A stretch of DNA of 36,430 bases from Paramuribaculum sp. (GCA_029058705.1 JAIDXA010000250.1:1-36430), one strand, 5' to 3'. Numbered from the stretch's first letter, positions 1 to 25,457 are shown. Program-made: numbers and translations. The notes: generated from the letters alone by a model not told the origin.

Positions 1-63
1 GCTGACAGATATGGCGCGGGCGCGGAGCGGGTTGATATGAGCGGCGTCGGAGCAACATCGCCG

Positions 64-71
64 CAAAGATA
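64..71 (-). promoter_or_regulatory. Bacteroidetes -7 promoter element (TATCTTTG) pointing off the left edge
   Basis: Reverse complement of caaagata matches the TAnnTTTG consensus; divergent from the operon starting at 294. Confidence 0.45.
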
Positions 72-232
72 AGGCCGCAGGGAGAGGAAACGGATGTCAA
101 TTTCAAAAATTGAAGCGCCTGTAATTGCCTGACTCAGTAATAGATCAAATTATTTAAGTTAAATATAGTTAATTATAGAAAATCTCATGTAAAATAATTT
201 CAAAAAAGCTTGCAAAAAGATAAAACGAGCCC

Positions 233-240
233 TATATTTG
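233..240 (+). promoter_or_regulatory. Bacteroidetes -7 promoter element (TATATTTG) for the S74/C25 operon
   Basis: TATATTTGCA about 55 nt upstream of ATG 294, with TTG at ~210 as a possible -33 element. Confidence 0.65.
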
Positions 241-293: not shown

Positions 294-1187
294 ATGAGAC
301 ATTTGATTTTATTTTTCGCGGCAATCGCTTTTACAGCAAACGCCGACATCCAAATCACTCCGAATCGCGTCACAGTGGGAGCCCCGACAACGTCAGCTGA
401 CTCAATCTTCGAGCTGTCGGTCGATATCCCCGGTGGGTTTGTAATGCATCATCCCTCCAAACGCGATGGAGAATTCAAAATCCATCTGCCATCAGGTAAT
501 GACACCAAAGAGTTTCAGTCGCCGTCAATATCGGGCAATGGAGGAGTGATGAGTCTGTATTACGAGGCTTATAAAAGGAAACAGGCGTTGAACTGCGGGA
601 ACATCTACCAGATGTCGGACGAACGCAGCAAGGAGGAGATTGAAGATCTTCCCTCAAAGCTTGACATTTTGGCAGAATCCATTGAGCCTACCGGGCCGAT
701 GAAATCAAGAAGCGCGTCTGAATTACCCTCCTCAATGAGACAGACAGCATTATATTCCTCTCTCGCGCCATCGTCCGTCATCATAACAGAACAAGATACG
801 GCAATAAATTATGCAGAGATAATTCCCGTACTGGTCAAGTCCGCTCAAGAACTGAGCAATCTGGCTGACCAACAGGATATCGTGATTGAAAATTTAAGAA
901 ATGAGATTGCACTAAGGAAACATAAAGCCGCATCGCCTGTAAAAATCAAATCATGTTCACCAAACCCGGCGCAAGACAATATTTCAGTTGTCATCGGGGT
1001 GGAAGAGAATATCTCAGGACTCAAAATCTCGATGGTCGATCTTGGTGGAAACTCATGTCTGAGCCTTGATGTCGCTGAACGTTATGAGCTGGCCATTACC
1101 GTAGGACATCTGAAGCGTGGAATATATCATCTTGTCCTTGCATCCGGTTCCGAAGTGTTTGATACATGTCGCATCATTTTAAACTAA
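294..1187 (+). CDS. Secreted tail-fibre/intramolecular chaperone (peptidase S74-like) domain protein with T9SS type A C-terminal sorting domain
   Basis: Signal peptide MRHLILFFAAIAFTANA (start moved from 210 to ATG 294, downstream of the promoter). S74 autocleavage-type motif SDERSK, INYAEIIPVLVKSAQEL plus coiled coil. C-terminal SPNPA...GIYHLVL...RIILN CTD pattern. Confidence 0.8.
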   Translation: MRHLILFFAAIAFTANADIQITPNRVTVGAPTTSADSIFELSVDIPGGFVMHHPSKRDGEFKIHLPSGNDTKEFQSPSISGNGGVMSLYYEAYKRKQALNCGNIYQMSDERSKEEIEDLPSKLDILAESIEPTGPMKSRSASELPSSMRQTALYSSLAPSSVIITEQDTAINYAEIIPVLVKSAQELSNLADQQDIVIENLRNEIALRKHKAASPVKIKSCSPNPAQDNISVVIGVEENISGLKISMVDLGGNSCLSLDVAERYELAITVGHLKRGIYHLVLASGSEVFDTCRIILN

Positions 1188-1193
1188 AACGCC

Positions 1194-1871
1194 ATGAAAA
1201 GAATAATATTACTAATATCGGTCATTGCCATGAATCTCAGTGTCATGGCTCAATTATCGTACTACGGAGGCCTGTTTCATCTGTCCAAAGACTCCAATTT
1301 CTTCAGACAAACCCCCGGATTCTATATCGACGGCTACAACGGGGTAATCATGAGATCAACCGGCGCGTGGTTCAAAATTGACCTCAGCAAAGAATATACC
1401 GCGCTCTCCGGAAGCCGCGATTTCATAAATCTTTATGATGCCGACACCGGCAACTATGGAACTCTATTTGTCTATGAGATATTCAACATGAACGAACACG
1501 GTAATGTCCCGTTCTCATTGGATGACGGAAGCGGACTGACAGTCGGGAGCAAGCTCAACGCCCTGCGTCCGGTGAGCTACAGATGGAAACCAACGGCAGA
1601 AAGCGCGAACGCCGACAATCTCAGACTCAAAAGCGGCGAACATTATGGATTCATCGCTCAGGAAATAGCGGAGGCCTATCCAGAACTTGTTGCGAGCGAC
1701 GACTACGGGAATCTGATGGTGAATTACATCGGCATGATACCAATTCTGATTCAGTCGCTTAAAGAAACAGAAGAACGCGTGGATCGCCAGACACTGGAAA
1801 TAGAGGCACTGCTCAGCGAAAAGTCACTACTTGAAAATCAGCCTGTAACAAAAAATCAGATCAAGCCATGA
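1194..1871 (+). CDS. Secreted tail-fibre/S74-like chaperone domain protein (paralogue 2)
   Basis: Signal peptide; LNALRPVSYRWK...HYGFIAQEIAEAYPELV...VNYIGMIPILIQSLKE followed by coiled coil. Confidence 0.85.
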   Translation: MKRIILLISVIAMNLSVMAQLSYYGGLFHLSKDSNFFRQTPGFYIDGYNGVIMRSTGAWFKIDLSKEYTALSGSRDFINLYDADTGNYGTLFVYEIFNMNEHGNVPFSLDDGSGLTVGSKLNALRPVSYRWKPTAESANADNLRLKSGEHYGFIAQEIAEAYPELVASDDYGNLMVNYIGMIPILIQSLKETEERVDRQTLEIEALLSEKSLLENQPVTKNQIKP

Positions 1872-2503
1872 AAAGAACCTCAATCACCGTCACACTCCTT
1901 GCGCTGTCAGCAGCCATAATGACCACACTCCCGGCAGGCGCACAGCTGAAGTATAAAGAACATGAATCCATCTGTATCGGTGAACACTTTCCAGACCCCA
2001 ACTATGGAGTGACAGCCAGAGGATTCCAATTGTTTCAGATCTACGGACCGGGGTCGATGTTCTACGCCAACACAAACCACACGATGTGCTATATCCGCGG
2101 ATCAAGCTGGAATGTGCTGTTCTACAACAGGCAGACGAATAAATACAATGATGTGCGGGCTGCCTATGTGCTCACCTATGCAACCGGAGAGATCTACGAC
2201 ACATGGATCGATCCGGCCTATACGTCATCCGTGCTCAGAACTCTCCGGCCTGTGGAGTTCAACACATCCGGCTCTCAGAAAACATCAATGGCAACAGCAG
2301 AAAAAACAAAATCAGGATACGGATTTGTAGCATCGGAAGTCGAGGAATTATTGCCAAAGGCAGTAATAACCGATGAAGATGGAAACAAACTGATCAATTA
2401 TTCGGCATTCATTCCATTGGCCACCAGATCCATCTCAGACATCTATCATAAAATTCAGGATAACGGCAAAAAACTGAAACAGCTCGAGTCCATGTCAGAA
2501 TAA
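1868..2503 (+). CDS. Secreted tail-fibre/S74-like chaperone domain protein (paralogue 3)
   Basis: Signal peptide ending AGA-Q; LRTLRPVEF...YGFVASEVEELLPKAV...INYSAFIPL; ATGA overlap with the previous gene. Confidence 0.85.
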   Translation: MKRTSITVTLLALSAAIMTTLPAGAQLKYKEHESICIGEHFPDPNYGVTARGFQLFQIYGPGSMFYANTNHTMCYIRGSSWNVLFYNRQTNKYNDVRAAYVLTYATGEIYDTWIDPAYTSSVLRTLRPVEFNTSGSQKTSMATAEKTKSGYGFVASEVEELLPKAVITDEDGNKLINYSAFIPLATRSISDIYHKIQDNGKKLKQLESMSE

Positions 2504-2530
2504 TCCAACACCCTAAAAACGACTGAAAAC

Positions 2531-4798
2531 ATGAAAACATATCTATATATCCTGCTTGCAATGATATTGGCGTCGCCGCCGGTATCGGCTCAGTCATACG
2601 AATTCACATTCAATCAGGATGATTTTGAAGTCAGCATATCAGACAATGTCGCTACGGTCAGCAGCAAGACTTCAGAATTCTTCACCACAACAAACCCGAC
2701 CGGACCGGTTCTTCCGATGACCATGAAAAAGGTGCTTAACCCATCAGGAAGTCACGCAGTCGATGTCGACGTCGCAATCTCGAAAAAGCTGATCGCCTCG
2801 GATGTTGCCATGGAGTCATGCGGCGAGTTCACGCCCACCAACGCAGCAGTGGCCGCAGCCGCGAAAAAAAACGCATTCGCCACGGCATCGGAAATGGATG
2901 CAGTGGGTCTGATGGCTGGAAAAAGCGCGCAAAACGGCTACAGTTTTTCCTATTACAGCCTTAAACCATTTCTCTATGATGCGGACGCGCGTGAACTCTA
3001 CTTTGTGAATAAAATTTCGTTTACTCCGCGTTTCGAGAGTCTCTTGAAGTCAAGGGCATCAGCCGACGTGGCAGAGATTCCTCGCCCCGATATGGTCGAT
3101 TTTTCCGACGTGCTGAATATCTCTGCCAAGGAGACCTACCCATCGCCGGGCTCATCCGTCAGCCGGGGCGCACAGCCGCAGAACGAGACGATCGACTATC
3201 TGATCATCACTGAAAGAACCCTGATTTGGGGATTCCCGGAATTTGTCAAGTGGAAACGCCAGAAAGGATTGAATGTCAAGTTGGTAACAATAGATGAGAT
3301 AGATGCACTCTATCCTGATATTGAATATAAACCATTAAGGATCAAAACATATATAAAGAAGCTCTATCAGGAGAATAAACTGAGTTATGTGCTTCTTGGA
3401 GGAACACCTGATATAGTACCACGCGTTCCCTGTTATTCGCCCATCGAAGGTCGAGATGAATCAGATGGTAAGTTGGACTCAGACACCTACTATTCATGCT
3501 TAAGCGATGGTTATAGCTTTGACTGGAATGGCAACGGCTACGAACCCTATGGAGAATACGACGACAATATTGATCTGGACCCGGATATATGTCTTGGGAG
3601 ATTGCTCGCAACTGGTCCCGGCGAAGTAGGAATAGCCTGCAAGAAGATTATAGAATATGAAAAAGGACGTTTTCCGGACGAAAACATAAATAAAATTCTT
3701 TTGGGCGGATCCTCCCTTAAACGAGATCAAGATCCCTATCCTGCAGTAGAAGGTAAGAGTTTTAGACATATAAATGGCGAATTACTTGATAATCTACATA
3801 TGAAACCTTATGGGAAACAGGCATCATATATTTTTGATACTACAGTATCGCCCAAATTCACTTCCAAAGAATTAGCTTCGGAGATAAACAAAAATTATCA
3901 TTTCATAAATATAGACTGTCATGGAGCAACCGATGCTTGGATTTGTTGTGAAAATGAGAATAATAATGACAATTTCGATAATGATAATATAAAATCACTC
4001 ACAAATATACCGGCCGTATTTACAACTACCGCCTGTTATACCAATGATTTTAGAAGTGAATCAAAGGGAGTTTCTCCGCAAGGTGCGAGACTTTCTCATA
4101 TATTGACAACGTCTGATAGTATCGGAAGTGTCGCCTACATAAGCAGTTCCGGACTTGGATGGAGAATTGGATATGGAATCGCAGCTTCCTCTCTTTACAA
4201 TGCGACATTCTATATGAATCTTTTTGGGACAAACAGTCGTCCACATGGGAATATCATTTCGCGTATACATAATCAAGTAATAACTAATTTAGTAAAAATT
4301 AATCAGGATATTTACAGATATCTCTTTTTGGGTATAAACGTTTCCGGAGATCCGGCGATGACACTGTTTACCGAAATACCCAAAACAATCGTTCCGCCCT
4401 CTATGACATGGACGGAAGAGGGATTACGTATCCGTAATATCCCGTCAGGGCTGATGGTTTCCATCAACGCAGTCGATGAAGAGACCACATGTTTAGGCAA
4501 ATGTATATCAACCGGCGACGACGTGTTTCCTGGCATCAATCGCCCGTGCGTATTGACAATCTCCGGTGTCAACTACAGACCCTACCAGTATCATATAAGA
4601 AATTATCCGGTCCTGACACTTGAAGACATGACGGTTACGGAAGATTCGGAGTATACCGCCGACAGGATTTATCTTGGCGACAATGTGAATTTAAGGAGCA
4701 TGGTCACACTCAAGCTGAACTACCGGGAGTTCCTAAAGGTCAGGGACAACATCAACTGCGATGCAGACAGCAAACTGATTATAAACCATAAAAAATGA
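2531..4798 (+). CDS. C25 family (gingipain-like) cysteine peptidase
   Basis: Signal peptide and propeptide-like N-terminus, then DYLIIT, WKRQKG, YVLLGG, SDTYY, LGRL, catalytic-type HG (DCHG) and TAC, and GDP motifs. Confidence 0.88.
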   Translation: MKTYLYILLAMILASPPVSAQSYEFTFNQDDFEVSISDNVATVSSKTSEFFTTTNPTGPVLPMTMKKVLNPSGSHAVDVDVAISKKLIASDVAMESCGEFTPTNAAVAAAAKKNAFATASEMDAVGLMAGKSAQNGYSFSYYSLKPFLYDADARELYFVNKISFTPRFESLLKSRASADVAEIPRPDMVDFSDVLNISAKETYPSPGSSVSRGAQPQNETIDYLIITERTLIWGFPEFVKWKRQKGLNVKLVTIDEIDALYPDIEYKPLRIKTYIKKLYQENKLSYVLLGGTPDIVPRVPCYSPIEGRDESDGKLDSDTYYSCLSDGYSFDWNGNGYEPYGEYDDNIDLDPDICLGRLLATGPGEVGIACKKIIEYEKGRFPDENINKILLGGSSLKRDQDPYPAVEGKSFRHINGELLDNLHMKPYGKQASYIFDTTVSPKFTSKELASEINKNYHFINIDCHGATDAWICCENENNNDNFDNDNIKSLTNIPAVFTTTACYTNDFRSESKGVSPQGARLSHILTTSDSIGSVAYISSSGLGWRIGYGIAASSLYNATFYMNLFGTNSRPHGNIISRIHNQVITNLVKINQDIYRYLFLGINVSGDPAMTLFTEIPKTIVPPSMTWTEEGLRIRNIPSGLMVSINAVDEETTCLGKCISTGDDVFPGINRPCVLTISGVNYRPYQYHIRNYPVLTLEDMTVTEDSEYTADRIYLGDNVNLRSMVTLKLNYREFLKVRDNINCDADSKLIINHKK

Positions 4799-5691
4799 GG
4801 GCTATGAAAAAGTATCTGAATATTGTGTTGGCTGTTATAGGGGTGTCGGTTTTGACTGGTTGCAAGGATGACCCTGATCCAATTATATTAGATTTTGAAC
4901 GGCTTGCAAGCCCAGAAACGGTGTTCCACGCCGGTGCAGAGTTTTGCCAGCGTGGGACTAATTATGGGGTTTTGTTCAATCTTTCGGAGAAGGAGTTTCT
5001 CGGCAGGTCATATCTTCAGATCAATATATTCGACAAACCGACCGAAATGCTTTTCAGGATTGACGGGAGCGTCATCTGGGGTTACGACCATCAATCAGAG
5101 AGCGAGTTCAAGATGTATGATTTTTCGAAGTGGCCATTGGAGGCGGGAGATTCACTGACCTACCGGATTTACGAAATCAATGACAACTACGAAATAACCG
5201 GAATTGCGGATTACAGCAACGTGCTTAAGAGCAATAGCAGTACGAAAGAATTAGATTTTATATTCAGTGAGGAACAGGAATCAAAAAGTGCAGCGGTTTA
5301 TAATCAAGATGACAAGATATATAAATCATATAATAATTATAATGATGTCTGGAATTATTATTATGCCGGAGAACATTATATATCCAATCATAAGGATAAT
5401 ATTTATAAAGATTCAAGAATTGCCCATCTTTATAGACCCAACTACTGGAATAACCATAAGGGACTATACTCATATATGATATGGTGTGGTTACCGTGTTT
5501 ACGAAGAACGATGGGATATATATCAGTATCGCACATTCAGATATATCCTGAACTTTGGAATGCATACCGGAAAGGGCCTTTTCTTTGAAGACAAGACTTT
5601 GACTGGAAATGAACCTGTTTTTGTTGAGATATATAAACAAGTTATTGATTCGGTAACCGATAAAATTAATGATGAGATCGGCTGTAGTTAG
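4795..5691 (+). CDS. Hypothetical lipoprotein
   Basis: Lipobox VLTGC followed by KDD; ATGA overlap with the C25 gene (alternative start 4804); Tyr/Asn-rich C-terminal half. Confidence 0.7.
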   Translation: MRAMKKYLNIVLAVIGVSVLTGCKDDPDPIILDFERLASPETVFHAGAEFCQRGTNYGVLFNLSEKEFLGRSYLQINIFDKPTEMLFRIDGSVIWGYDHQSESEFKMYDFSKWPLEAGDSLTYRIYEINDNYEITGIADYSNVLKSNSSTKELDFIFSEEQESKSAAVYNQDDKIYKSYNNYNDVWNYYYAGEHYISNHKDNIYKDSRIAHLYRPNYWNNHKGLYSYMIWCGYRVYEERWDIYQYRTFRYILNFGMHTGKGLFFEDKTLTGNEPVFVEIYKQVIDSVTDKINDEIGCS

Positions 5692-5792
5692 AAGCTGTTT
5701 AAGAGAATGTTTACTTTTACCACGAATTAAGAAACTCATCACTCCCGGGACTGTAGATAATGACAAATTCATGAAGTAATAATATTGGATGC

Positions 5793-5835
5793 CGGCAAGG
5801 CGGACTCCCATCAGAATGGGGCGTCCGCCTTGCTG
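5793..5835. terminator. Hairpin between convergent genes (probable bidirectional terminator)
   Basis: cggcaaggcggac...gtccgccttgctg inverted repeat with an inner cccat/atggg stem. Confidence 0.6.
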
Positions 5836-5912
5836 TTATAAGAGAGAGGTTGAATTAAAAGAGTGTTTGAATTAAGAGTATGGCTACTCTGAGATCCATA
5901 TATGAGGCGGGA

Positions 5913-8999: not shown

Positions 9000-9878
9000 T
9001 TACCGGATTTCAGCAGACCGGGCCTCAACCAGGAGTTTACCGAATTCGAGGATGTTTTTTGCAGTTACGGGAGGCTGGGGGTCGGAGTTGATGGCGGTTT
9101 CGAGAGTAGTCTCCCCCGACAGGACGAGCACACCGAGGGCTCCGGCATTAGCGGCCATTGCCACATCGGTGTAGATGCGGTCGCCACACATGGCAATCTC
9201 ATCGGGACGCAGCCCGAGGCGGAACCGGATTCCAGAGAGCATGTCGGGATTCGGCTTGCCGATGACAATGTCGGGACGTCGCGAAACCGCATGTTCGATG
9301 CAAGCGCAAAGCGATCCGCAGTCGACCAGTACGGTCCGGAGGTTCGTGGGGCAGACGCGGTCGGGGTTCGTTGCGATGTACGGGATTCCCTGAGAGGCGA
9401 GCCATGAAGCATGGCACAGCCTGTTGTAGTCGAGGGTTGTGTCGAAAGCGACGACAAGAGCCTGCGGCATATCGTCGGCCGACGGCGCGGTCAATTCGAA
9501 TCCGGCCTGTTGGAATTCGGCTTTCATGTCGGGAGTGCCGACAACAAAAATCCGTCTGACACCGGGCATGCGCGCATGCAGGTAGTCGATAGTGGCGACT
9601 GCCGTCGTGTACATGTTTTCAGGTTTGGCCTCGATTCCCATTCCGCGCAGTTTCCGGATATATGACGGAATGCTTTTTGTCGGGTTGTTTGTCAGGAAGG
9701 AATACGTTATTCCGTTTTCGTCGAGAAGTCTGAGAAAGTCTTTTGTGAAAGGAAACAGTTCGGACCCGAGATAGATCGTTCCGTCCATGTCAAGAGCGAC
9801 ATGCCGAATTTTCCGGCAGGCTTCGAGAAGTTCGGAATGAGACATCGGGGTGAGGTATGTTTCGCAGATTGTTTTCAT
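9000..9878 (-). CDS. HAD-IIA family (NagD-like) phosphatase
   Basis: DMDGTIY, LTNN, TNPD, GKP and GDRIYTD motifs. Confidence 0.92.
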   Translation of the reverse strand: MKTICETYLTPMSHSELLEACRKIRHVALDMDGTIYLGSELFPFTKDFLRLLDENGITYSFLTNNPTKSIPSYIRKLRGMGIEAKPENMYTTAVATIDYLHARMPGVRRIFVVGTPDMKAEFQQAGFELTAPSADDMPQALVVAFDTTLDYNRLCHASWLASQGIPYIATNPDRVCPTNLRTVLVDCGSLCACIEHAVSRRPDIVIGKPNPDMLSGIRFRLGLRPDEIAMCGDRIYTDVAMAANAGALGVLVLSGETTLETAINSDPQPPVTAKNILEFGKLLVEARSAEIR

Positions 9879-9903
9879 GATCGGTAGGTGTCAGAGGTTT
9901 GTG

Positions 9904-11448
9904 TCAGAGATCAGTGTCGTCAAGAGAACCGGCTTCGGCAATGGCTTCCTCCTTTTCTTTTCCGGACAGTTGCCGGTAGAAGTGGTTTGAGCGTTCGTAT
10001 CCGTCGCGCGGAGCAGTCCACATCGTGAGGAACGTCAGCGCGCCAAGAACGCCGACGCCGATAATGAGGAGAAAAACAGTGTTCCATCCGAAACAGTCGG
10101 CGATATATCCGATTCCGATGGCCGATACGAACGATCCGAAATAGCCGAAGATGCCTGCGAGTCCGTTGGCTGTTGCCGAGGCGTCTTTAGTGGCGTGGTT
10201 TGCCGAGGCGATACCGATAAGAGCCTGAGGGCCGTAGATGAAGAATCCGGCCATGGCAAGCAGCAGGATGGACAGGATTGCGGGGATATCTGTGATGAAA
10301 ATAAACAACGACATGAAAAAGACGGCCCCGATCATGCATATTAGACACATCCGGTGGGCTTTACCGTTGAATATCCTGTCGGTTGCCCATCCGGCGATTA
10401 TTGTTCCCACGATGGCGCAGATCTCAAATACAGCGACAGTCGTCGCGGCCATTTCAATCGACATACCCCGGGCTTCGGTCAGGAATTTGGGACCCCAGTC
10501 GAGGATTCCCATCCTCATGACGTAGACAAATACATTGGCGATGCATAGAGTCCAGATCCACCGGTTGGTCCATACCATAACGGAAAGGAAGCGGGAGTGG
10601 GAAACGTTTTTCTTGCCGGAATCCTTGCCGGTTGTCGTGCCGGGGAGTTCGGGCAGACCGACAGAACGGGGATCGTCGCGCAATCCGATGTAGAGCCAGA
10701 GCGCGCCAACGACAGCAAGGACACCGGGAAGCCAGAAACACCATCGCCAGGCATCCCAATGGCTGGCATAGCCGAGGATTGTTTTCATATCGCCCGGATC
10801 GGAAGTGTCGAGCCCAAGGTTGCCGGCAATGGTCGATATGATCCGGGGATCGTTGCTGAGGTCCTGTCCGAGCTGCCCCATGATGAATCCGCAGGCGAGG
10901 ACAGCCGCACCGGCTCCGATGGAGTGGCTCGTGTTCCAGATCGACATTTTGGTGGCGAGTTCGGACGGATGTATCCATGACGGGAGCAACCGGGCGCATG
11001 GGGGATAGCCTATTCCCTGAAAATACTGGTTCAGTACGCTTGTGACGCCCATGACAAGAATGAGCATGTTTATGAAATCGGGGCCGTTGTAAGCGCCCAC
11101 GATCATGCCGGACAGGTTGACTCCGAATCCGAAGCAGAAGTTTGCGGCGGCGCACAGAAGCAGCCCGACAGCCATGACCTTACGGGAACTCGCTTTGTCG
11201 ACGACGAAGCCATTGACGAATCGTGAAAATCCATAGATCAGCGATCCGATTCCGATGATCCATCCGAAGCTGGTGTTTGTAATGCCGTATTGGGCTGTCA
11301 GTCCGGGCATTGCCACAGAGAAGTTCTTACGGACAAAGTAGTAGATGGCATATCCTACCATCGAAACGAGAATGGTTCTCAGCTGCCAGCGTTTAAAATT
11401 CCTGACCGTCAGGGCATCCCATCCGGCGTAGATGTTTTCTTTACTCAT
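9904..11448 (-). CDS. glpT: GlpT/UhpT-family MFS organophosphate:Pi antiporter (probable glycerol-3-phosphate transporter)
   Basis: GYAIYYFVRKNF, FQGIGYPPC, WNTSHSIG, GFFIYGPQ; in the glpABC operon; start placed at MSKENIY. Confidence 0.82.
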   Translation of the reverse strand: MSKENIYAGWDALTVRNFKRWQLRTILVSMVGYAIYYFVRKNFSVAMPGLTAQYGITNTSFGWIIGIGSLIYGFSRFVNGFVVDKASSRKVMAVGLLLCAAANFCFGFGVNLSGMIVGAYNGPDFINMLILVMGVTSVLNQYFQGIGYPPCARLLPSWIHPSELATKMSIWNTSHSIGAGAAVLACGFIMGQLGQDLSNDPRIISTIAGNLGLDTSDPGDMKTILGYASHWDAWRWCFWLPGVLAVVGALWLYIGLRDDPRSVGLPELPGTTTGKDSGKKNVSHSRFLSVMVWTNRWIWTLCIANVFVYVMRMGILDWGPKFLTEARGMSIEMAATTVAVFEICAIVGTIIAGWATDRIFNGKAHRMCLICMIGAVFFMSLFIFITDIPAILSILLLAMAGFFIYGPQALIGIASANHATKDASATANGLAGIFGYFGSFVSAIGIGYIADCFGWNTVFLLIIGVGVLGALTFLTMWTAPRDGYERSNHFYRQLSGKEKEEAIAEAGSLDDTDL

Positions 11449-11534
11449 CGCATTGAAAGAAGGTCGAAATGATGATTGGTTATACAAATTTACAGAATTT
11501 CCGGCTATTGTCAAAACACGACACCGGTCGTGGT

Positions 11535-12779
11535 TCAGATGTCATTTGCCCTGCGGGTGGCATCGATATCGAGAGCGGAGGCAAGAATCGACACGGGGTT
11601 TTCGACGGGAACTCCGGCAGACATTTCGATCTGCCATTTGCATGTCTCGCAATCGGATGCAACAATGTCGACACCGGCACCGCGTATGCTGTCGAAGAGT
11701 TCGGCCCCGACGGCCTGTGAAGTGGCATAGTTTTCTTTCTTGAATCCGTAGGTGCCTGAAATGCCGCAGCAACCTGGCTCGATCGGAATCAGTTCGAGAC
11801 CCGGAATCATTTTCAGGAGTTCGAGGGAGTGGACAGCCCATCCCATGCGCTGCATGTGGCACGGGACGTGATAGGCCACGCGTTTTTTCCATTCGCGGCG
11901 GAAAACGAGCCTGACATTTCCTGCATCGACGAGCTGATGGATGAAGCGTGTGGCGAGGAGGATAGAGTCGCGGACATCATGGTTGTCGAGATGAAGGATG
12001 TGGGGATATTCGTCGCGCATTGTGAATATGCACGTCGAGCTTGTTCCGAGGACAATACGTCCGTCGGCAACAGAATTACGGATGGCGTGCAGGTTTTTTT
12101 CAGCGTCGCGCCGGGCCTGGCCGATGAGCCTGTTTGCGATTTTGGCGACACCGCAGCAACGCTCGTGTTCGAGAAGCCTGACCCCATAGCCGATCGCATT
12201 CATCAAAGTGACAAAATCGCGGCCGAGGGCGGGATTGTTGTAGTTGACATAACATCCGTGGAAATATGAGACCTGACGCCTAAACGGATTCTGGTCGGGC
12301 GCTCCGGAGTTCATCCAATGTTCGAACGTCTGCGAGGCGTAGGCGGGAAAAGTCCGTCGGGAGTCGATTCCGACAATGTGGTGCATGAGGGTTTTTACAG
12401 GCCCCAGACGGAGCATCGTGTTGACGACCGGAGCGATTTTCGTTGCGACAGCCCCCATTTCGTCGGTCGATGCCAGCATGCGGTCGCGCAGCGAAACGGG
12501 GTGTCGGTCATAGCGTATGCGCGCGTTCTGGATGATGTCGCCGATCCGCACTCCGGATGGACATGCAACCTCGCAACGTTTGCAGTTCAGACACATTTTC
12601 AGCGCCTTGTCGTAGAATTCAGGCGCTTTCAACCTGTATCGCTCGCCATCGGGCCCAGCCTGTTTGGGGCCTGGATAGAGTGGATTGACCGAAAGGACAG
12701 GACAATAGACGGTGCATATGGTGCATTTTATGCACTGTTCGAAATTGTCGCGACTTATGTTTTTTACTTGATATTCCAT
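11535..12779 (-). CDS. glpC: Anaerobic glycerol-3-phosphate dehydrogenase subunit C
   Basis: CIKCTICTVYCP and CLNCKRCEVACP 4Fe-4S motifs, GPKQAGPDGER, CCG domains. Confidence 0.95.
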   Translation of the reverse strand: MEYQVKNISRDNFEQCIKCTICTVYCPVLSVNPLYPGPKQAGPDGERYRLKAPEFYDKALKMCLNCKRCEVACPSGVRIGDIIQNARIRYDRHPVSLRDRMLASTDEMGAVATKIAPVVNTMLRLGPVKTLMHHIVGIDSRRTFPAYASQTFEHWMNSGAPDQNPFRRQVSYFHGCYVNYNNPALGRDFVTLMNAIGYGVRLLEHERCCGVAKIANRLIGQARRDAEKNLHAIRNSVADGRIVLGTSSTCIFTMRDEYPHILHLDNHDVRDSILLATRFIHQLVDAGNVRLVFRREWKKRVAYHVPCHMQRMGWAVHSLELLKMIPGLELIPIEPGCCGISGTYGFKKENYATSQAVGAELFDSIRGAGVDIVASDCETCKWQIEMSAGVPVENPVSILASALDIDATRRANDI

Positions 12780-12803
12780 CTGAAAGTGAGAAGGGAAAGT
12801 AAA

Positions 12804-14042
12804 CTATTGGAGGATTTGCCTGGCTGCAGCGACGGCGGTCAGGAGAGCTATTCCTGCTCCGGAGCCTTCATTGAGAGAATCGGCACCGGAAAGGATCGAG
12901 CCGACAGCGCGGAGATTTGTGACAACCGAGCCGTTGCGTGACACACGGAACCGGCTGTCGGTCACGACGCCGAACCGCATATAGGGTTGTGGTGCGAAAA
13001 AGTCGATATCGCATCGGGAGGTGCGTTTTTCCGATTGCACGACATCGAGTCCAAACACCGGTTCGATGACCGCATCGGGTTTCGCCACCAGTCCCTGGCT
13101 GAAAAAGCTGCCGGTAGCGATCAGGAATTCGTCGGCCCGAAGGGGCGTTTCGCCGAGATTCACGGTGTTTACCGATATCAGACGGTTGTTTTCGAAGTTG
13201 CCTTTGTTGACGCTGTCGCCAAGGAAATAAGCACCTCCCAGGCTTTCAAACCGCCGGCGCATGAGAAACTCGGCCCGCACACCGGTTACCGACATTGGAA
13301 TCACGGGTACATATCTGACCGTGATGTCGACAAGCGAAGCGAGAAGGTTGGCCGGTGCGTCGGAACGGAGTCCGACCACAGCGGGGAGAAGCAACACGTC
13401 GGCGTCGGATTTTATTTTCCGTATTGCCTGCGCGAGATCGCTGACAGCCTTGCCTTCGAGGATTCGTGCCATCGAGGCGGCCCTCATTCCGGAACAGCTT
13501 TTTCGGAGAGCTGCGAGCTGCGGGAGTTCGATTTCATAGGATTCGGAAGCGATTCCCGCAGTGGCGAGCCCGTCGGCAAGATATCCGGGATGGAAGTCGA
13601 GGTAGCCTTTGAAATTGACTATGGCGGCTTTACGCCACGTGCATCGCGAAGGATGGCTGCATGAGGCGATATCCTTTACCGTCAGCCAGGCCGGTTGCCA
13701 GACTCCGAATGGAGTCAGGCAATAGCGATGGGCTTCAGGAGAACCTTCGACATCAAGGCCGGCACGCCTGAGAATCATTGTTGCTTCGGCCGCGAAGTCG
13801 TGAATATTGCCTACCCCTATTTTCTGATATGGATGGGATGGGGGGAGTGTTGCGATTGCCTGCAGCGGGTCGCAGACCTGGCGACCGTCGATCCGGTTGA
13901 GCAGCGACATTGATCCTGAGGAAAAATGCAGGGCACTCTGTCCGGAAGTTATTATCGCGACTTTTTTCCCGGCCGAGACGAGCCGTATTCCGGCAGTCAG
14001 ACCGCTGAGTCCACCTCCGATTATAATAGAATCGTATTTCAT
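12804..14042 (-). CDS. glpB: Anaerobic glycerol-3-phosphate dehydrogenase subunit B
   Basis: IIGGGLSG, GQSALHFSSGS, ATGSFFSQGL motifs. Confidence 0.95.
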   Translation of the reverse strand: MKYDSIIIGGGLSGLTAGIRLVSAGKKVAIITSGQSALHFSSGSMSLLNRIDGRQVCDPLQAIATLPPSHPYQKIGVGNIHDFAAEATMILRRAGLDVEGSPEAHRYCLTPFGVWQPAWLTVKDIASCSHPSRCTWRKAAIVNFKGYLDFHPGYLADGLATAGIASESYEIELPQLAALRKSCSGMRAASMARILEGKAVSDLAQAIRKIKSDADVLLLPAVVGLRSDAPANLLASLVDITVRYVPVIPMSVTGVRAEFLMRRRFESLGGAYFLGDSVNKGNFENNRLISVNTVNLGETPLRADEFLIATGSFFSQGLVAKPDAVIEPVFGLDVVQSEKRTSRCDIDFFAPQPYMRFGVVTDSRFRVSRNGSVVTNLRAVGSILSGADSLNEGSGAGIALLTAVAAARQILQ

Positions 14043-15751
14043 TGTTCGGAATTTTTTCTGTCGGGGTTACCGGGATTAGCTACCGGATGAGTAGGGGTTT
14101 CGGTTGTATGGCCTTGTCCGGAGGGAATGAGCTGCGGATCAAGACCGCAGACGCCCTTGTAGAGCCATGATGAGAACTGCGCTTCAACCAGCGTCTGACC
14201 CCATGCGACGGGAAACATGCCTTTCCATCGTTCGTTAAGGAAATTGCAGAGATCGCGGAGGGCGTGAGGCCTGTCGTTGAGTTCGTCGCCGAGAATGGCG
14301 GCCGCGCGGCTCGCGCAAAGACATCCCTGGCAGGTGCCCATTCCGAGCCTTGTGCGTCGCCGCAGATTCACCAGATTGTTTGCATGAAGCTTGCGGACGG
14401 CATAACGGATTTCGCCGACAGAAACCTCTTCGCATTCACAGACGAGTGCGTCATTGTTTGTGTCGAGACCGATGTCGGGTGTCATCGATCCATGCCGTCC
14501 GAGCGCGGCCTTATGATCGGTAGTGAGTTCGATTATATGGCGTTTTCCGTGACTGACCGGAGCGTCTTTGTCGGATTTGTCTGATCCGGGCAGCGGAGTT
14601 GTCGCGGTCCGGCATTTTTCGCTGCGGCCAAGCTTACGGCATGCCATGTCCGTGGCCCACTCGGCCATCAGCCTGTAGGTCATGAGCTTGCCTCCGGTAA
14701 TTGTTATAAATCCTTCGAGGCCGTCGCGCAGGGCATGATCCAGACAGACAATTCCGCGGCTTATGCTTCGGCCGGAAGGATCGTCGTCAGAAGCCACAAG
14801 CGGCCGCACTCCGGCATAAGCGCGCAGAATTCTTGTTGTTGCAAGCGATGGAGCAATCCGCGATCCTTCGCGCAGGAGAATATCGACCTCCTCGGGGGTC
14901 ACCTCCATATTGTCGACCTGATCGTATGGGATCCGGCTCGAAGTTGTTCCGATGAGCGATATGGTGTCGCCCGGTACGAGAATGTCTGCGTCGGCCGGTT
15001 TACGGCATCTGTTTATCACTATATTGTTGACCCTGTGTCCGAATATCAGCAAAGCTCCCTTTGCAGGAAACATATTGACATCAACTCCGGCGAGACGGCA
15101 GATTCCGTGTCCCCAGATTCCGGCTGCATTGATGACAAGATCGGCGTCAACGCGCCGCGATCCGCCGGTGCGCTGGTCGCGCAGAGTCACGCCGCATACG
15201 CGCTGGTGAGATATGTTCAGAGCCGTCACTTCGTGATAGGTCAGGATGTGTGCGCCGTTGCGTTGCGCCGCAATGGCATTGGCTGTAGTCAGCCTGAACG
15301 GATCGACTGCACCGTCAGGGACTTTGACCGCCCCGATAATGTCGGGGTTTACAGCCGGCTCGATTCTACGGGCTTCTGCAGGATCGATTATCTCAGCCTC
15401 GATTCCGGCATTGCGGCAGGCCTCGACGAAAGTGGCCTGATAGGCGAGATCGTCGTCGGGCAAGGTCACGAATATCCCCCCCGTCTCCTCAACGCAATGG
15501 CGGGCGATTTTCCGGAGGATCATGTTCTCGCGAATACACTCGGCAGCCGACTCCCGGTCGGTCACCGCATAACGCGCGCCGCTGTGGAGCAGCCCGTGGT
15601 TTCGCCCTGTCGCACCAGCGGTGAAATCGAACCGCTCGACAAGAAGGACTTTCAGGCCACGCATCGCGCAGTCGCGTGCCGTGCCGGCGCCCGTTGCCCC
15701 CGCTCCGATTATAATGACATCATAATGTTGGTCAGACTGATTGTTTTTCAT
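14039..15751 (-). CDS. glpA: Anaerobic glycerol-3-phosphate dehydrogenase subunit A
   Basis: IIGAGATGAG, GATGRNHGLLHSGARY, CECE...RRRTRLGMGTCQG; alternative start 15775. Confidence 0.95.
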   Translation of the reverse strand: MKNNQSDQHYDVIIIGAGATGAGTARDCAMRGLKVLLVERFDFTAGATGRNHGLLHSGARYAVTDRESAAECIRENMILRKIARHCVEETGGIFVTLPDDDLAYQATFVEACRNAGIEAEIIDPAEARRIEPAVNPDIIGAVKVPDGAVDPFRLTTANAIAAQRNGAHILTYHEVTALNISHQRVCGVTLRDQRTGGSRRVDADLVINAAGIWGHGICRLAGVDVNMFPAKGALLIFGHRVNNIVINRCRKPADADILVPGDTISLIGTTSSRIPYDQVDNMEVTPEEVDILLREGSRIAPSLATTRILRAYAGVRPLVASDDDPSGRSISRGIVCLDHALRDGLEGFITITGGKLMTYRLMAEWATDMACRKLGRSEKCRTATTPLPGSDKSDKDAPVSHGKRHIIELTTDHKAALGRHGSMTPDIGLDTNNDALVCECEEVSVGEIRYAVRKLHANNLVNLRRRTRLGMGTCQGCLCASRAAAILGDELNDRPHALRDLCNFLNERWKGMFPVAWGQTLVEAQFSSWLYKGVCGLDPQLIPSGQGHTTETPTHPVANPGNPDRKNSEQ

Positions 15752-15858
15752 CAATAGCGCCGCCCTGCATACCATCGGGCCGATGTTTTGTATAGTGATA
15801 TGTACAGAACAAAATCAAAAGCGATTGTGTTTCGTTTTGCTCTTTTTATATTTCGCAA

Positions 15859-15866
15859 CAAAAGTA
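15859..15866 (-). promoter_or_regulatory. -7 promoter element (TACTTTTG) for the glpABC operon
   Basis: Consensus match upstream of glpA. Confidence 0.55.
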
Positions 15867-16014
15867 GCAAGGTTTTGTTGAATAACAAAATTATTTTATC
15901 AAAACTGAATTATTTTTTCATAATTCTCCAGTCGGCGAATACCACCAAGCCCTACAGTCCTGCCGGCTTATTAAATAATGACATCTGTATTCCATTTATT
16001 CATAATTTTTTTAT

Positions 16015-16022
16015 TACATTTG
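16015..16022 (+). promoter_or_regulatory. -7 promoter element (TACATTTG) for the DeoR regulator
   Basis: TACATTTGCA in the AT-rich divergent intergenic region. Confidence 0.6.
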
Positions 16023-16204
16023 CAGTGTAAACACTTAAATCAGATAAAAAACCACGCACAACACAAGTTTCGCAACCGCCCGATGACGAAAACAATCAGG
16101 TTTCGCTTTTCGGAAAACGCGACAGACACAACCTAATAACTATTTCGAAACTCTCTTCATTCAATCGCATTTCAGTCAAACCACCAAGACCACAACTTCC
16201 AGCC

Positions 16205-16975
16205 ATGACAAAAGAAGAACGCCATCAGCTTATCCTCGACACCCTAATGCGCCACGAGTCAATTCCAGTGTCGAGCCTGTCAATGCTATTGGATGTATCG
16301 GCAGTAACAATACGCAAAGACCTCACCGAGCTTGAAGCCGAAAACAAGCTCTACCGCAGCCATGGCAAAGCCGTTCTGATCAACCCCTACATAAACAACC
16401 GTTCGATCAGTGAAAAAGAAAAGCTCCAGCGCACGGAAAAAGAACTCATCGGCCGCGAGGGCGCGTCAATGATCACACGCGACGATTCGATCATCATAGC
16501 GTCGGGCACAACGGTTCTCGCGTTCGCGCGCTGCATCACCCCGATCCACCGGCTGACCGTGATCAGCGCATCGCTTGCGGTTTCGCAGCTGCTCGGCCCG
16601 AATGAATCCATAGAGGTCGTACAGCTCGGCGGCTCACTGCGCCAAAGCTCACTGTCGGTCGTCGGCAAATTCGCCGAAAGCCCGCTTTGCGAGTTTTCAT
16701 GCAGCAAGCTGTTTATAGGTGTCGACGGCATCGATCCTGATTTCGGAATCACGACGACAGACATCCGCGAGGCCGAACTAAACCGCGCGATGATGCGCAC
16801 AGCCCAGAAAACAATTGTTCTGGCGGACTCTTCGAAATTCCGCCGCCGCGGATTCAGCAAAATCGCCAATCTGACAGAAATCGACACCATCATCACAGAC
16901 TCCAGGATAGCCCCGACAGTTGCCCAGTCGATCGAAGATATGGGAATCGAACTGAGAATCGTTCCGGTCGACTGA
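16205..16975 (+). CDS. DeoR/GlpR family transcriptional repressor
   Basis: ERHQLIL...VSAVTIRKDL HTH; SGTT, GG, ADSSKF sensor motifs; divergent from glpABC. Confidence 0.93.
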   Translation: MTKEERHQLILDTLMRHESIPVSSLSMLLDVSAVTIRKDLTELEAENKLYRSHGKAVLINPYINNRSISEKEKLQRTEKELIGREGASMITRDDSIIIASGTTVLAFARCITPIHRLTVISASLAVSQLLGPNESIEVVQLGGSLRQSSLSVVGKFAESPLCEFSCSKLFIGVDGIDPDFGITTTDIREAELNRAMMRTAQKTIVLADSSKFRRRGFSKIANLTEIDTIITDSRIAPTVAQSIEDMGIELRIVPVD

Positions 16976-23201: not shown

Positions 23202-24506
23202 ATGACATTAAAGAATTCACACAGTTCGATCTATCCATGGATTGTCGTAGGGCTGCTCTGGGTAGTGGCACTACTCAACTACATGGACCGCCAGATGCTC
23301 TCGACAATGCAGAGCAACATCGCCCTCGACATCCCCGCGCTCCAAAACGCCGAAGCGTTCGGCGCCCTGATGGCCATCTTCCTATGGATCTACGGATTCG
23401 CCAGCCCATTTTCGGGTGCTGTCGCTGACCGAGTCAGCCGGAAATGGCTGATTGTCGGATCGCTGGGCGTATGGTCGGCTGTCACTCTGGCAATGGGCTT
23501 CTGCCATAGTTTCCAACAACTTATGTGGCTACGCGGCATAATGGGCATCTCCGAGGCGCTCTACATTCCTTCGGCGCTCTCGCTCATCGCCGACTACTTC
23601 ACCGGCAAAGGGCGTTCACTCGCCATCGGCCTCCATATGACCGGACTCTACTGCGGACAGGCATTAGGCGGTTTCGGATCACTTGTGGCCTCGACATGGT
23701 CGTGGCAGTCAACATTCCAGTGGTTCGGAATAATAGGAGTCGCCTATGCATTCATTCTGATTTTTCTTCTCCATGAAAAGCCAGGCCACGGGAATCTGCC
23801 TGACAAGAAAACGGCTTCAGACGCCGCTTCGCGCAACAGCGAGTCAATTGTCCGTTCATTTGCAGTCGTCTTCACCAACGTCGCATTCTGGGTCATTCTT
23901 TTCTTCTTCGCATCAAGCTCGATTCCGGGATGGGCAACAAAAAACTGGCTTCCGACCCTGTTTGTCGACAATCTTGGCCTGTCAATGGAACTGGCCGGCC
24001 CGATGGCCACACTGACAATCGCCGTGTCGAGCTTCATCGGAGTGATGATCGGCGGCCCGATAAGCGACAATTGGGTGCGGCGCAACGTACGCGGACGCAT
24101 CTACACAAGCTCCATCGGCCTCGCAATGATGATTCCGGCACTTGTCTTTATCGGTCTTGCCCACAACGCATGGCTTTCGATACTCGCCGGTCTGTTTTTC
24201 GGAGTCGGCTACGGAATGTTCGATGCCAACAACATGCCCATACTGTGCCAGTTTGTCTCTTCACGCCAGCGGGCAATGGCCTACGGATTCATGAACTCAC
24301 TGGGAGTCATAATGGGAGCCATCACCACCCAGCTTCTGGGAGGTCTGTCGGAATCTGTCGGACTCGGGCTCTGTTTCGCCCTTATGGGTGGAATCCTTCT
24401 AATCGCGCTGTCGCTGCAGCTGATCGTCCTCAAACCAAAATATGACGACAAGGACCTCGAATTGTCCGAGGCCTCCCTGTCGGAATCCGAACAAAACCAA
24501 ATGTAA
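23202..24506 (+). CDS. MFS transporter, probable sialic-acid permease
   Basis: LNYMDRQ, GAVADRVSRK; 12-TM MFS pattern; directly upstream of the Neu5Ac lyase. Confidence 0.8.
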   Translation: MTLKNSHSSIYPWIVVGLLWVVALLNYMDRQMLSTMQSNIALDIPALQNAEAFGALMAIFLWIYGFASPFSGAVADRVSRKWLIVGSLGVWSAVTLAMGFCHSFQQLMWLRGIMGISEALYIPSALSLIADYFTGKGRSLAIGLHMTGLYCGQALGGFGSLVASTWSWQSTFQWFGIIGVAYAFILIFLLHEKPGHGNLPDKKTASDAASRNSESIVRSFAVVFTNVAFWVILFFFASSSIPGWATKNWLPTLFVDNLGLSMELAGPMATLTIAVSSFIGVMIGGPISDNWVRRNVRGRIYTSSIGLAMMIPALVFIGLAHNAWLSILAGLFFGVGYGMFDANNMPILCQFVSSRQRAMAYGFMNSLGVIMGAITTQLLGGLSESVGLGLCFALMGGILLIALSLQLIVLKPKYDDKDLELSEASLSESEQNQM

Positions 24507-24535
24507 TTCAAATCCACATAAACAAACCAACCAAA

Positions 24536-25453: not shown

Positions 25454-25457
25454 TTCC

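What the first reader, a model, noticed from the sequence alone, without database searches (positions are those of the whole stretch)
294..5691. Candidate new secreted system: three phage-tailspike-chaperone (S74-like) paralogues + gingipain-like protease + lipoprotein, with one T9SS signal for the whole operon
Seen: five tightly packed co-oriented genes (gaps of 6 and 27 bp, two ATGA overlaps) behind one promoter and ending at one hairpin. All five have Sec or lipoprotein signal peptides, and there are no phage genes nearby. Three are short paralogues with the S74-type chaperone domain, and only the first has a T9SS type A CTD. Known: S74 domains trimerise phage tailspikes/fibres and then self-cleave, and T9SS cargo normally needs its own CTD. 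Inference: the three proteins form a 1:1:1 heterotrimer, a phage-derived folding module domesticated for secretion. The CTD-bearing subunit may carry the others, and possibly the CTD-less C25 protease, through T9SS. The lipoprotein could be an anchor, inhibitor or immunity factor.
Basis: partly seen in the sequence, partly recalled or inferred. Interest (0 to 1): 0.85.

Follow-up and report, generated by a model that had tools for sequence, protein, structure and literature searches.

The report
One export tag, four secreted proteins
A gut bacterium carries three phage-tail-like genes beside a protease gene that lacks the usual export tag, and comparison across relatives suggests the three proteins likely form a short spike that grips the protease's tail so that one tag would carry all four out of the cell, a loading route I found no description of.

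Summary
The five-gene operon is real, intact and under purifying selection. It is the triplicated form of a widespread Bacteroidales module. In that module a short S74-chaperone/coiled-coil protein sits next to a protein that ends in a ~65-residue beta-helix tail (weakly related to NCBIfam GCX_COOH).

Among related non-PorU C25 proteases, 29 of 31 scorable tail-terminal, CTD-less ones have an S74 gene alongside. None of 25 with their own C-terminal tag does, and the state switches at least six times on the tree. Elsewhere the export signal changes partner: when the S74 gene lacks a CTD, the tail protein carries a CTD or is a lipoprotein (13 of 13). This points to a trimer-plus-cap complex that shares one export signal.

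The triplet occurs in 4 of 69 genus genomes, as three position-specific clades. ORF1 keeps the CTD and the SDxxxK motif; ORF2 and ORF3 here have lost both. Heterotrimer formation, binding and export are inferred, not shown: the complex predictor was unavailable. The lipoprotein is best read as an inhibitor/immunity-type partner (weak evidence). No description was found in ten literature searches.

The parts
233..240 (+). Bacteroidota-type -7 promoter box (TATATTTG)
   Evidence: motif search (3 matches in 6 kb, this one 53 bp before ORF1); consensus recalled
294..1187 (+). ORF1 (297 aa): signal peptide, short beta-spike region, degenerate S74 domain that keeps SDxxxK, coiled coil, T9SS type A CTD
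   Evidence: position-1 clade in tree
615..632 (+). SDxxxK S74 autocleavage motif (Ser108...Lys113) of ORF1
   Evidence: motif as defined in PMC10769870
960..1184 (+). type A CTD of ORF1, the only CTD detected in the operon
   Evidence: PF18962 E 2e-5 and TIGR04183 E 5e-4 to 3e-3, both just under cut-off
1194..1871 (+). ORF2 (225 aa): signal peptide, beta-spike region, S74 domain lacking SDxxxK in this lineage, coiled coil, no CTD
   Evidence: PF13884 E 3e-10; Atlas neighbours 100% S74
1868..2503 (+). ORF3 (211 aa): as ORF2; SDxxxK absent in 6 of 6 orthologues; no CTD
   Evidence: PF13884 E 0.0045, below cut-off; orthologues above cut-off
2531..4798 (+). gingipain-like C25 cysteine protease (755 aa): prodomain, catalytic domain with His464/Cys502, Ig-like domain, beta-helix tail, no CTD
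   Evidence: PF01364 E 5e-45; His-Gly and Cys at least 90% conserved in 42 relatives; model pLDDT 82.5; Foldseek RgpB E 5e-22
4598..4795 (+). C-terminal beta-helix tail (about residues 690-755), GCX_COOH-like; inferred docking cap
   Evidence: model pLDDT 94.6, all beta; best structural matches are beta-helices at Z 5 or less; relatives hit NF045639 weakly; the window's own tail does not
4795..5691 (+). lipoprotein (298 aa; lipobox Cys23 followed by an acidic stretch); distant relative of the CTD-bearing proteins encoded at the same position in other loci; candidate inhibitor/immunity protein
   Evidence: no Pfam/NCBIfam hit; hhalign 91%, E 1e-6 over 47 columns; Atlas unnamed Bacteroidota clusters 0.85
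5692..5734 (.). short dispersed repeat directly after the last stop codon
   Evidence: 33-43 bp matches on 17 other contigs
5789..5839 (.). strong hairpin between the operon and the convergent rubrerythrin gene; likely terminator
   Evidence: ViennaRNA -35.2 kcal/mol

Best explanation
ORF1, ORF2 and ORF3 likely assemble in the periplasm into one short three-chain spike, the protease's terminal beta-helix likely caps that spike, and the single export tag on ORF1 would then pull the whole complex through the type IX secretion system. Shown: the gene anatomy, selection on all five genes, one CTD, and the coupling of tail, S74 gene and export signal across genomes. Inferred (about 0.75): tail and S74 trimer bind. 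Inferred (about 0.65): the three paralogues form a 1:1:1 heterotrimer derived from a one-gene homotrimer. Inferred: export by hitch-hiking, then PorU processing of ORF1's CTD. Speculative: only ORF1 can self-cleave, so uncleaved ORF2/ORF3 would keep the spike and protease joined to the coiled coil and thus to the surface anchor. Speculative: the lipoprotein is the protease's cognate inhibitor. The protease's substrate is unknown.
For: (1) C25-first survey: 67 non-own loci from 301 family genomes. Tail-terminal and CTD-less: 29 of 31 scorable have an S74 gene alongside (7 more at contig ends). Own CTD, or fusion to a downstream tagged protein: 0 of 25 scorable (2 more at contig ends). Two loci were unclassifiable. 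(2) The tree of 70 C25 domains needs 11 changes of the tail+S74 state, at least 6 forced by well-supported branches. (3) S74-first survey: 35 of 40 family loci have a tail-terminal neighbour; 0 of 37 such neighbours hit TIGR04183. (4) Tail-first survey over 151 order genomes: terminal tails have an S74-CTD gene in 8 of 11 scorable loci. Tails followed by a CTD-like end have a CTD-less fibre neighbour in 7 of 10 and an S74-CTD gene in 0 of 10. (5) Where a short S74 lacks a CTD and the partner ends in the tail, the partner has a lipobox in 13 of 13 cases picked. (6) The passenger varies (C25, S8, C1, M12/M43, GH16, transglutaminase, Rhs bridge) while the tail is constant. (7) Triplet: three clades, one per gene position, support 97-99, same internal branching; dN/dS 0.07-0.13 for all three; complementary motif loss. 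(8) The genome encodes SprA and PorU. (9) Precedent for a monomer capping an S74-family trimer: the top PDB match of the profile is gp37 of the gp37(3)-gp38 complex 6F45 (PMC6851490 passages).
Against: No binding, structure of the complex, expression or secretion data exist here. 27 of the 29 positive loci were first found through their S74 gene, and most trained the C25 and tail profiles. Among loci not found that way the count is only 2 of 4 versus 0 of 25 (Fisher p 0.015, kin not independent). Exceptions: an intact tail-type C25 with no adjacent S74 (L122; its genome has two adaptors elsewhere); tails without an S74 neighbour (L080, L093, L113, L129); S74-CTD genes without a tail neighbour (8 of 19, some truncated or with tails the filter missed; L229 is a clear case); a CTD-less S74 with no tail neighbour on Bacteroides plasmids. 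At least 4 of the 7 long fusions keep an internal tail remnant without any S74 gene. Only 10 of the 27 own-tag C25 ends hit TIGR04183; most others were called with a home-made profile or by eye. Coiled-coil charge pairing did not favour a heterotrimer. Self-cleavage at SDxxxK would cut the spike from the CTD, and this is unresolved for the one-gene form, where 38 of 42 keep the motif.
Confidence: 0.55

Rival explanations
1. Tail and S74 proteins bind and share the tag, but not as a 1:1:1 heterotrimer. ORF1 would trimerise alone or in mixed ratios, with ORF2/ORF3 acting as alternative subunits or as periplasmic assembly helpers.
For: The ancestral one-gene form must work as a homotrimer (about 35 family loci). 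Tandem adaptor duplicates that each keep a CTD exist (L032, L033, L200). The charge test is uninformative.
Against: Always exactly three genes in the same order in 6 operon copies, each its own clade. ORF1 orthologues have lost the GFxAQE core motif that ORF2/3 keep, and ORF2/3 have lost the CTD.
Confidence: 0.15
2. The S74 trimer is a folding template or maturation factor for the tail-bearing enzyme, or a periplasmic shuttle that hands it to the translocon. The enzyme would not travel bound to it, or would stay periplasmic.
For: S74 domains are chaperones (PMC10769870). The tail resembles beta-helix segments including an autochaperone region (3ml3, Z 4.0). Pairs with no CTD on either gene exist (lipoprotein S8 type; L071 and L073).
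Against: The tail is predicted to fold alone at pLDDT 94.6. A pure chaperone would not need to be lost each time the C25 gains its own CTD, nor to swap which partner bears the export signal.
Confidence: 0.14
3. The lipoprotein, not the CTD, gets the protease to the surface or anchors it there.
For: Lipobox followed by an acidic stretch like the recalled Bacteroidota surface-export signal. In other loci a lipoprotein is the only export signal of the module. The lipoprotein is translationally coupled to C25 in this operon.
Against: In those other loci the lipoprotein itself bears the tail, whereas here it does not. The same gene position is filled by CTD-bearing homologues in one-gene loci and in the G030 triplet, and the S74-CTD gene is still present there. 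Deletion remnants keep the lipoprotein while losing the protease.
Confidence: 0.08
4. The genes are only co-transcribed. The S74 proteins are an independent adhesin and the protease works separately.
For: Orphan S74-CTD genes and orphan tails exist. Kin share gene order, which inflates counts.
Against: At least 6 independent switches in which tail and S74 gene go together. The export signal sits reciprocally across four other architectures. 0 of 80 viral and 1 of 80 CTD-less long or truncated cellular S74 loci have a tail neighbour.
Confidence: 0.08

Closest known systems
Phage S16 long tail fibre tip, gp37(3)-gp38 (PDB 6F45; PMC6851490 passages)
   Same: Best PDB match to the S74 profile (E 4e-16). 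A trimeric beta-helix of the S74 family is capped by one functional monomer.
   Different: gp37 is a homotrimer on a virion, and gp38 docks through three helices with tryptophans. Here the proteins have Sec signals, the candidate cap is a C-terminal beta-helix on an enzyme, and one chain has a T9SS CTD.
Bdellovibrio MAT fibres, S74 subgroup (Bd3182; PMC10769870 passages)
   Same: Chromosomal, signal-peptide-bearing S74 proteins with SDxxxK, used without phage.
   Different: MATs are about 1000-aa homotrimeric adhesins. These are 211-297 aa with almost no fibre, come as three divergent paralogues, and pair with a tail-bearing enzyme.
Gingipains RgpB/Kgp (peptidase family C25)
   Same: Prodomain, caspase-like catalytic domain with His/Cys, Ig-like domain.
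   Different: 18% identity. The CTD is replaced by a beta-helix tail. Substrate specificity is unknown.
T9SS type A cargo; type B cargo with PorP/SprF partners (PMC10994853 passages; PMC9143113 listing)
   Same: A single CTD binds the SprA/PorV cavity and exits CTD-first; some cargo need a dedicated partner.
   Different: In the papers seen, each cargo carries its own CTD. Here the enzyme and two S74 chains have none.
Hitch-hiker export by Tat (PaoABC; PMC4273604 abstract in listing) and VgrG-PAAR cargo loading in T6SS (recalled)
   Same: One signal or one trimeric spike moves signal-less partners.
   Different: Different machines and unrelated proteins; an analogy only.
Potempin-KLIKK protease pairs of Tannerella forsythia (PMC7296668 passages)
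   Same: A lipoprotein encoded next to a secreted protease, reported as its specific inhibitor.
   Different: No sequence relationship was tested. Potempins are small and upstream; this lipoprotein is 298 aa and downstream.

Membership tests
Peptidase_S74 / intramolecular chaperone (PF13884) | profile match above curated cut-off | tested here: inconclusive
   ORF2 met (40.5 bits); ORF3 17.7, below 22, but orthologues 38.8 and 44.8; ORF1 no hit
Peptidase_S74 / intramolecular chaperone (PF13884) | SDxxxK catalytic motif | tested here: inconclusive
   met in ORF1 (6 of 6 orthologues); not met in window ORF2 (3 of 6 orthologues keep it) or ORF3 (0 of 6)
Peptidase_S74 / intramolecular chaperone (PF13884) | trimerisation and self-cleavage | not testable with these tools
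   needs biochemistry; the complex predictor was unavailable
T9SS type A cargo (ORF1) | signal peptide plus C-terminal type A CTD | tested here: met
   PF18962 25.2 bits (cut-off 27), 27.2 in the genome search, orthologues 28.3-28.5; marginal but consistent; signal peptide by eye
T9SS type A cargo (ORF2, ORF3, C25) | own CTD | tested here: not met
   no PF18962/TIGR04183 hit
Peptidase C25 (gingipain-like) | profile match, His/Cys dyad, gingipain fold | tested here: met
Peptidase C25 (gingipain-like) | proteolytic activity and specificity | not testable with these tools
   needs assay
PorU sortase | NF033707 above cut-off, about 1150 aa | tested here: not met
   34 bits vs 420; the true PorU is on C250
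GCX_COOH, 3-coathanger stack domain (NF045639) | profile match | tested here: inconclusive
   the window's tail does not hit; 11 of 37 and 5 of 11 homologous tails hit below cut-off
Prophage or phage tail module | phage genes nearby; long fibre without signal peptide | tested here: not met
   none of 80 viral S74 loci has the CTD or tail context; upstream of base 1 unseen
Potempin-type inhibitor (lipoprotein) | inhibits the co-encoded protease | not testable with these tools
   only indirect signs: fastest evolution, low GC, tandem and orphan copies

The most novel reading that the evidence does not exclude
Bacteroidota have domesticated a phage fibre tip as a general plug-and-socket. A short S74 trimer and a ~65-residue beta-helix cap snap together in the periplasm, so one export signal on either partner (T9SS CTD or lipoprotein) displays proteases, glycanases and Rhs toxins on the surface, with S74 self-cleavage acting as a release switch. 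In this genus the trimer became an obligate heterotrimer with one tag and one cleavable chain, which would turn a released enzyme into a tethered one.
Probability: 0.4. Interest if true: 0.9.

Novelty: new variant of a known kind. Interest (0 to 1): 0.76.

Why it matters
T9SS cargo is predicted by looking for a CTD. If this reading holds, a class of CTD-less enzymes is exported by docking on a partner and is missed by such predictions; the tail profile matches 1,627 protein clusters at 50% identity. It would give a function to two common but unstudied annotations, the Bacteroidota 'tail fiber domain-containing protein' and the GCX_COOH-like domain. It makes two questions directly testable: whether the T9SS moves assembled hetero-oligomers on a single tag, and how a self-cleaving domain can sit upstream of its own export signal. 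A portable 65-residue docking tail would also be a tool for surface display in gut commensals.

Tried and rejected
- Complex prediction of ORF1+ORF2+ORF3+tail: not available, no verdict.
- Coiled-coil e/g charge scoring: favoured order 1-3-2 in the window and in G506, but scored two homotrimers equally. ORF1 was mis-anchored in two other sets and the script stopped at the fifth. Rejected as evidence.
- A PF01364 scan of 401 genomes listed almost only PorU and was replaced.
- A curated GCX_COOH scan of 61 phylum genomes gave 5 hits. Four lie in an operon with a CTD-less coiled-coil fibre gene. That fibre family has no Pfam S74 hit (0 of 10) and only a 67% hhalign match over the coiled coil, so its S74 membership is inconclusive, and its profile was built from sequences picked by eye.
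- Fold searches with the tail gave only generic beta-helices (Z 5 or less; no Foldseek hit at E 0.001 or better) and no match to PAAR or gp38.
- The lipoprotein could not be folded usefully (Atlas model pLDDT 0.31).
- Word-index protein searches found only 4 and 1 close relatives.
- No RNA holder was listed.
- No other triplet turned up in 400 family genomes (only 7 candidates scored per genome), in 79 genome loci beyond two genus-level relatives, or in 80 metagenome loci.
- A 721-aa S74-S8-tail fusion in one metagenome contig (L242) may be an assembly artefact and was not counted.
- Literature: ten searches found no paper linking S74 proteins to T9SS cargo or naming the GCX domain (0 papers). 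The library lacks most subscription journals, and supplements were not read.
Full report
Observation. The five ORFs, their spacing, a Bacteroidota-type promoter box and a strong downstream hairpin are as described. The window is contig C169 of a 2.3-Mb, 88%-complete genome. The nearest named records for ORF2 (77-79% identical) are titled Muribaculaceae/Paramuribaculum, and the runs that hold the stretch are mostly animal gut metagenomes. The genome encodes SprA and PorU. The other 24 ORFs scanned are metabolic or housekeeping genes. All five genes are under purifying selection against genus relatives: dN/dS is 0.07-0.13 for ORF1-3, 0.21 for C25 and 0.32 for the lipoprotein (simple Nei-Gojobori; dS near saturation for the window pairs, 0.17-0.31 for the second-copy pairs).

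The three small proteins. ORF2 is a clear S74 protein. ORF3 is one by way of its orthologues, and ORF1 by alignment and motif. A profile of the family matches S74-bearing structures: phage S16 gp37, MYRF and others. The triplet occurs in 4 of 69 genus genomes, six operon copies in all, some split over contigs. It was not found among 400 family genomes, where only 7 candidates were scored per genome. In a quick IQ-TREE tree of 60 rows the three positions form three clades (support 98, 97, 99) with the same internal branching, grouped with short one-gene adaptors from the same family. The triplication therefore predates the divergence of these operons and all three genes were kept each time. The losses are complementary. 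Position 1 keeps the CTD and SDxxxK (6 of 6) but lacks the GFxAQE core motif. Position 3 lacks SDxxxK (0 of 6), position 2 keeps it in 3 of 6 and not in the window, and one-gene adaptors keep it in 38 of 42. This fits an obligate heterotrimer but does not show it. A charge test of the coiled coil was uninformative, and the complex predictor was unavailable.

The C25 protein has a gingipain-type prodomain, catalytic domain (His464, Cys502) and Ig-like domain. Where gingipains have a CTD, it has a ~65-residue all-beta tail, predicted to fold alone (pLDDT 94.6) like a short beta-helix. Homologous tails hit NCBIfam GCX_COOH weakly. A profile of 41 tails matches 1,627 clusters at 50% identity. Of the best 150, 140 have it within 25 residues of the C-terminus and none of those has a CTD (many are fragments).

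Coupling of tail, S74 gene and export signal. S74-first: of 40 family loci, 35 have a tail-terminal neighbour, mostly a 730-900-aa C25 directly beside a single S74-coiled coil-CTD gene, and 0 of 37 such neighbours hit TIGR04183. C25-first: 71 matches in 301 genomes gave 67 non-own loci. Of 38 tail-terminal loci, 31 were scorable and 29 have an S74 gene alongside. The two exceptions are an intact orphan and a truncated remnant, both in genomes with adaptors elsewhere. Of 27 loci with their own C-terminal tag (20 direct, 7 long fusions to the downstream protein), 25 were scorable and none has an S74 gene. Two loci could not be classified. Two caveats apply. 27 of the positives were found first through S74 and most trained the profiles; the unbiased remainder is 2 of 4 versus 0 of 25. 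And only 10 of the 27 own tags hit the curated CTD model. The states are interleaved on a FastTree tree of 70 C25 domains: 11 changes, at least 6 forced by starred branches. Tail-first across the order: 38 new loci. Terminal tails have an S74-CTD gene in 8 of 11 scorable loci (13 more are cut by contig ends). Tails followed by a CTD-like end have a CTD-less fibre neighbour in 7 of 10 scorable loci and never an S74-CTD gene (3 unscorable; 1 locus untagged). Most of those fibres belong to a family whose S74 membership is inconclusive.

Five architectures emerge. A: S74-CTD plus a tail-terminal enzyme (C25, C1, M12/M43, GH16, transglutaminase). B: CTD-less S74 or S74-like fibre plus a tail-CTD protein. 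C: CTD-less ~204-aa S74 plus a tail-terminal lipoprotein of ~600 aa (S8 protease in the one scanned with Pfam; 13 of 13 picked have a lipobox, two are tail-only), as in Prevotella brunnea and Bacteroides heparinolyticus. D: S74 plus a small YD-repeat protein plus a ~2000-aa Rhs-type protein, where either the Rhs N-terminus looks GCX-like by eye and the small protein has the CTD, or the small protein has the tail and the S74 has the CTD. E: this window. In each, the export signal sits on one partner of the S74/tail pair, and which partner varies. The simplest reading is that the two bind before export. Types B and C also imply that the trimer is more than a carrier, since there it is the passenger; a stalk or targeting spike for the enzyme is my guess. 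As a control, 0 of 80 viral S74 loci and 1 of 80 CTD-less long or truncated cellular S74 loci have a tail neighbour. Against the rule, 8 of 19 short S74-CTD loci in that call showed no tail neighbour (some truncated, two with tail-like ends that the filter missed), and two Bacteroides plasmids carry a CTD-less S74; the one inspected has no tail partner.

The lipoprotein. It has no family hit, but its N-terminal part is related to the CTD-bearing proteins that follow the C25 gene in one-gene loci (hhalign 91%). It evolves fastest and shares a low GC content with the C25 catalytic domain: 0.39 for both, against 0.46-0.51 for the other operon parts and 0.54 for the rest of the window. It occurs in tandem and orphan copies. 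A lipoprotein gene is kept in two deletion remnants that join the start of ORF1 to the C25 tail region (C85 in this genome, L066), and contigs of three other runs show a similar join, 312 to 4635. That pattern is what an inhibitor or immunity gene would show (inference; compare the potempins, PMC7296668 passages). No activity was tested.

Mechanism and the open problem. Most likely all four non-lipoprotein chains cross the inner membrane by Sec, ORF1-3 trimerise through the S74 and coiled-coil regions, the protease tail caps the spike, and ORF1's CTD enters SprA/PorV CTD-first (as shown for type A cargo, PMC10994853 passages). S74 domains cut themselves at the serine of SDxxxK (PMC10769870 passages), which would separate the spike from the CTD. 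In the one-gene form cleavage must therefore be delayed, or the pieces must stay bound until export; cleavage could serve as a release step. In the window only ORF1 could cleave, so the complex would stay linked through ORF2/ORF3. This last point is speculation. Which end of the spike the tail binds is unknown.

Comparison and novelty. It works like a phage gp37(3)-gp38 tip (PMC6851490 passages) and like hitch-hiker export in Tat (PMC4273604, abstract in listing) or VgrG-PAAR loading (recalled), but it is a member of none of these. The parts are known families; I found no description of the pairing in ten searches. One paper lists a 362-aa 'tail fiber domain-containing protein' in a Tannerella forsythia vesicle proteome table (PMC10682907 passage); its gene context was not checked. 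A T9SS review (PMC10202324 passages) showed nothing on CTD-less cargo in the passages seen. Earlier AI notes of this scan report related pairings of S74 fibres with small T9SS partners; they are leads, not support. Verdict: a real feature, an undescribed cargo-loading variant of T9SS with a genus-specific heterotrimeric form; best explanation 0.55, interest 0.76.

Noticed in passing
G000 contigs C303, C212, C109: A second complete copy of the operon appears split over three contigs (ORF1-3 at 40-44% identity, C25, two tandem lipoproteins). G512 has the same layout on C6 and C13.
   Followed up: yes
G000 contig C85 4755-5421; L066:16217-18259; window 312/4635 joint in runs X2-X4: Recurrent deletions join the start of ORF1 to the C25 tail region; in C85 and L066 a lipoprotein gene is kept downstream.
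   Followed up: partly
L092:6877-11434, L102, L105, L091: Arrays of 76-85-aa tail-only ORFs alternating with 156-217-aa proteins behind a full-length tail enzyme, resembling cassette arrays of polymorphic toxin loci.
   Followed up: no
L123, L124, L126, L128, L145, L147, L149: 1030-1200-aa C25 proteins apparently fused to the downstream partner and a C-terminal tag, some with an internal tail remnant, and without an S74 gene.
   Followed up: partly
L397:6910-10648 (Parabacteroides distasonis record NZ_OY725801.1): An unannotated 135-aa ORF with signal peptide, beta-helix tail and one YD-type repeat lies between an S74-CTD gene and a ~2000-aa FG-GAP/Rhs-type gene: a candidate bridge protein.
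   Followed up: partly
L008, L163, L195, L219, L264; G000 contig C128 10592-17133: Small 143-151-aa CTD proteins directly precede ~2000-aa Rhs-type genes, in five loci together with a CTD-less S74 gene.
   Followed up: partly
L027, L030, L031, L117, L397:4612-4974: A ~120-aa gene (annotated DUF3244 in the P. distasonis record) and often a TPR regulator precede many one-gene adaptors; absent from the window's operon.
   Followed up: no
window 1-113 and 5692-5734: Two dispersed repeats flank the operon: ~110 bp on about 10 other contigs, mostly near contig ends (possible IS end), and 33-43 bp on 17 others.
   Followed up: no
window 9000-16975: Glycerol-3-phosphate utilisation cluster (anaerobic G3P dehydrogenase-like subunits, MFS transporter, HAD hydrolase, DeoR regulator), followed by a metallophosphoesterase and a glycerophosphodiester phosphodiesterase.
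   Followed up: no
window 23202-29284: Sialic acid utilisation cluster with a 1040-aa fusion of GDSL esterase, sialate O-acetylesterase and NanM-type mutarotase domains.
   Followed up: no
L396:2384-5252 (Bacteroides ovatus plasmid NZ_CP103211.1): A CTD-less 204-aa S74 gene on a conjugative-type plasmid, between a 67-aa lipoprotein-like ORF and a methyltransferase; the same methyltransferase follows several lipoprotein-type loci.
   Followed up: partly
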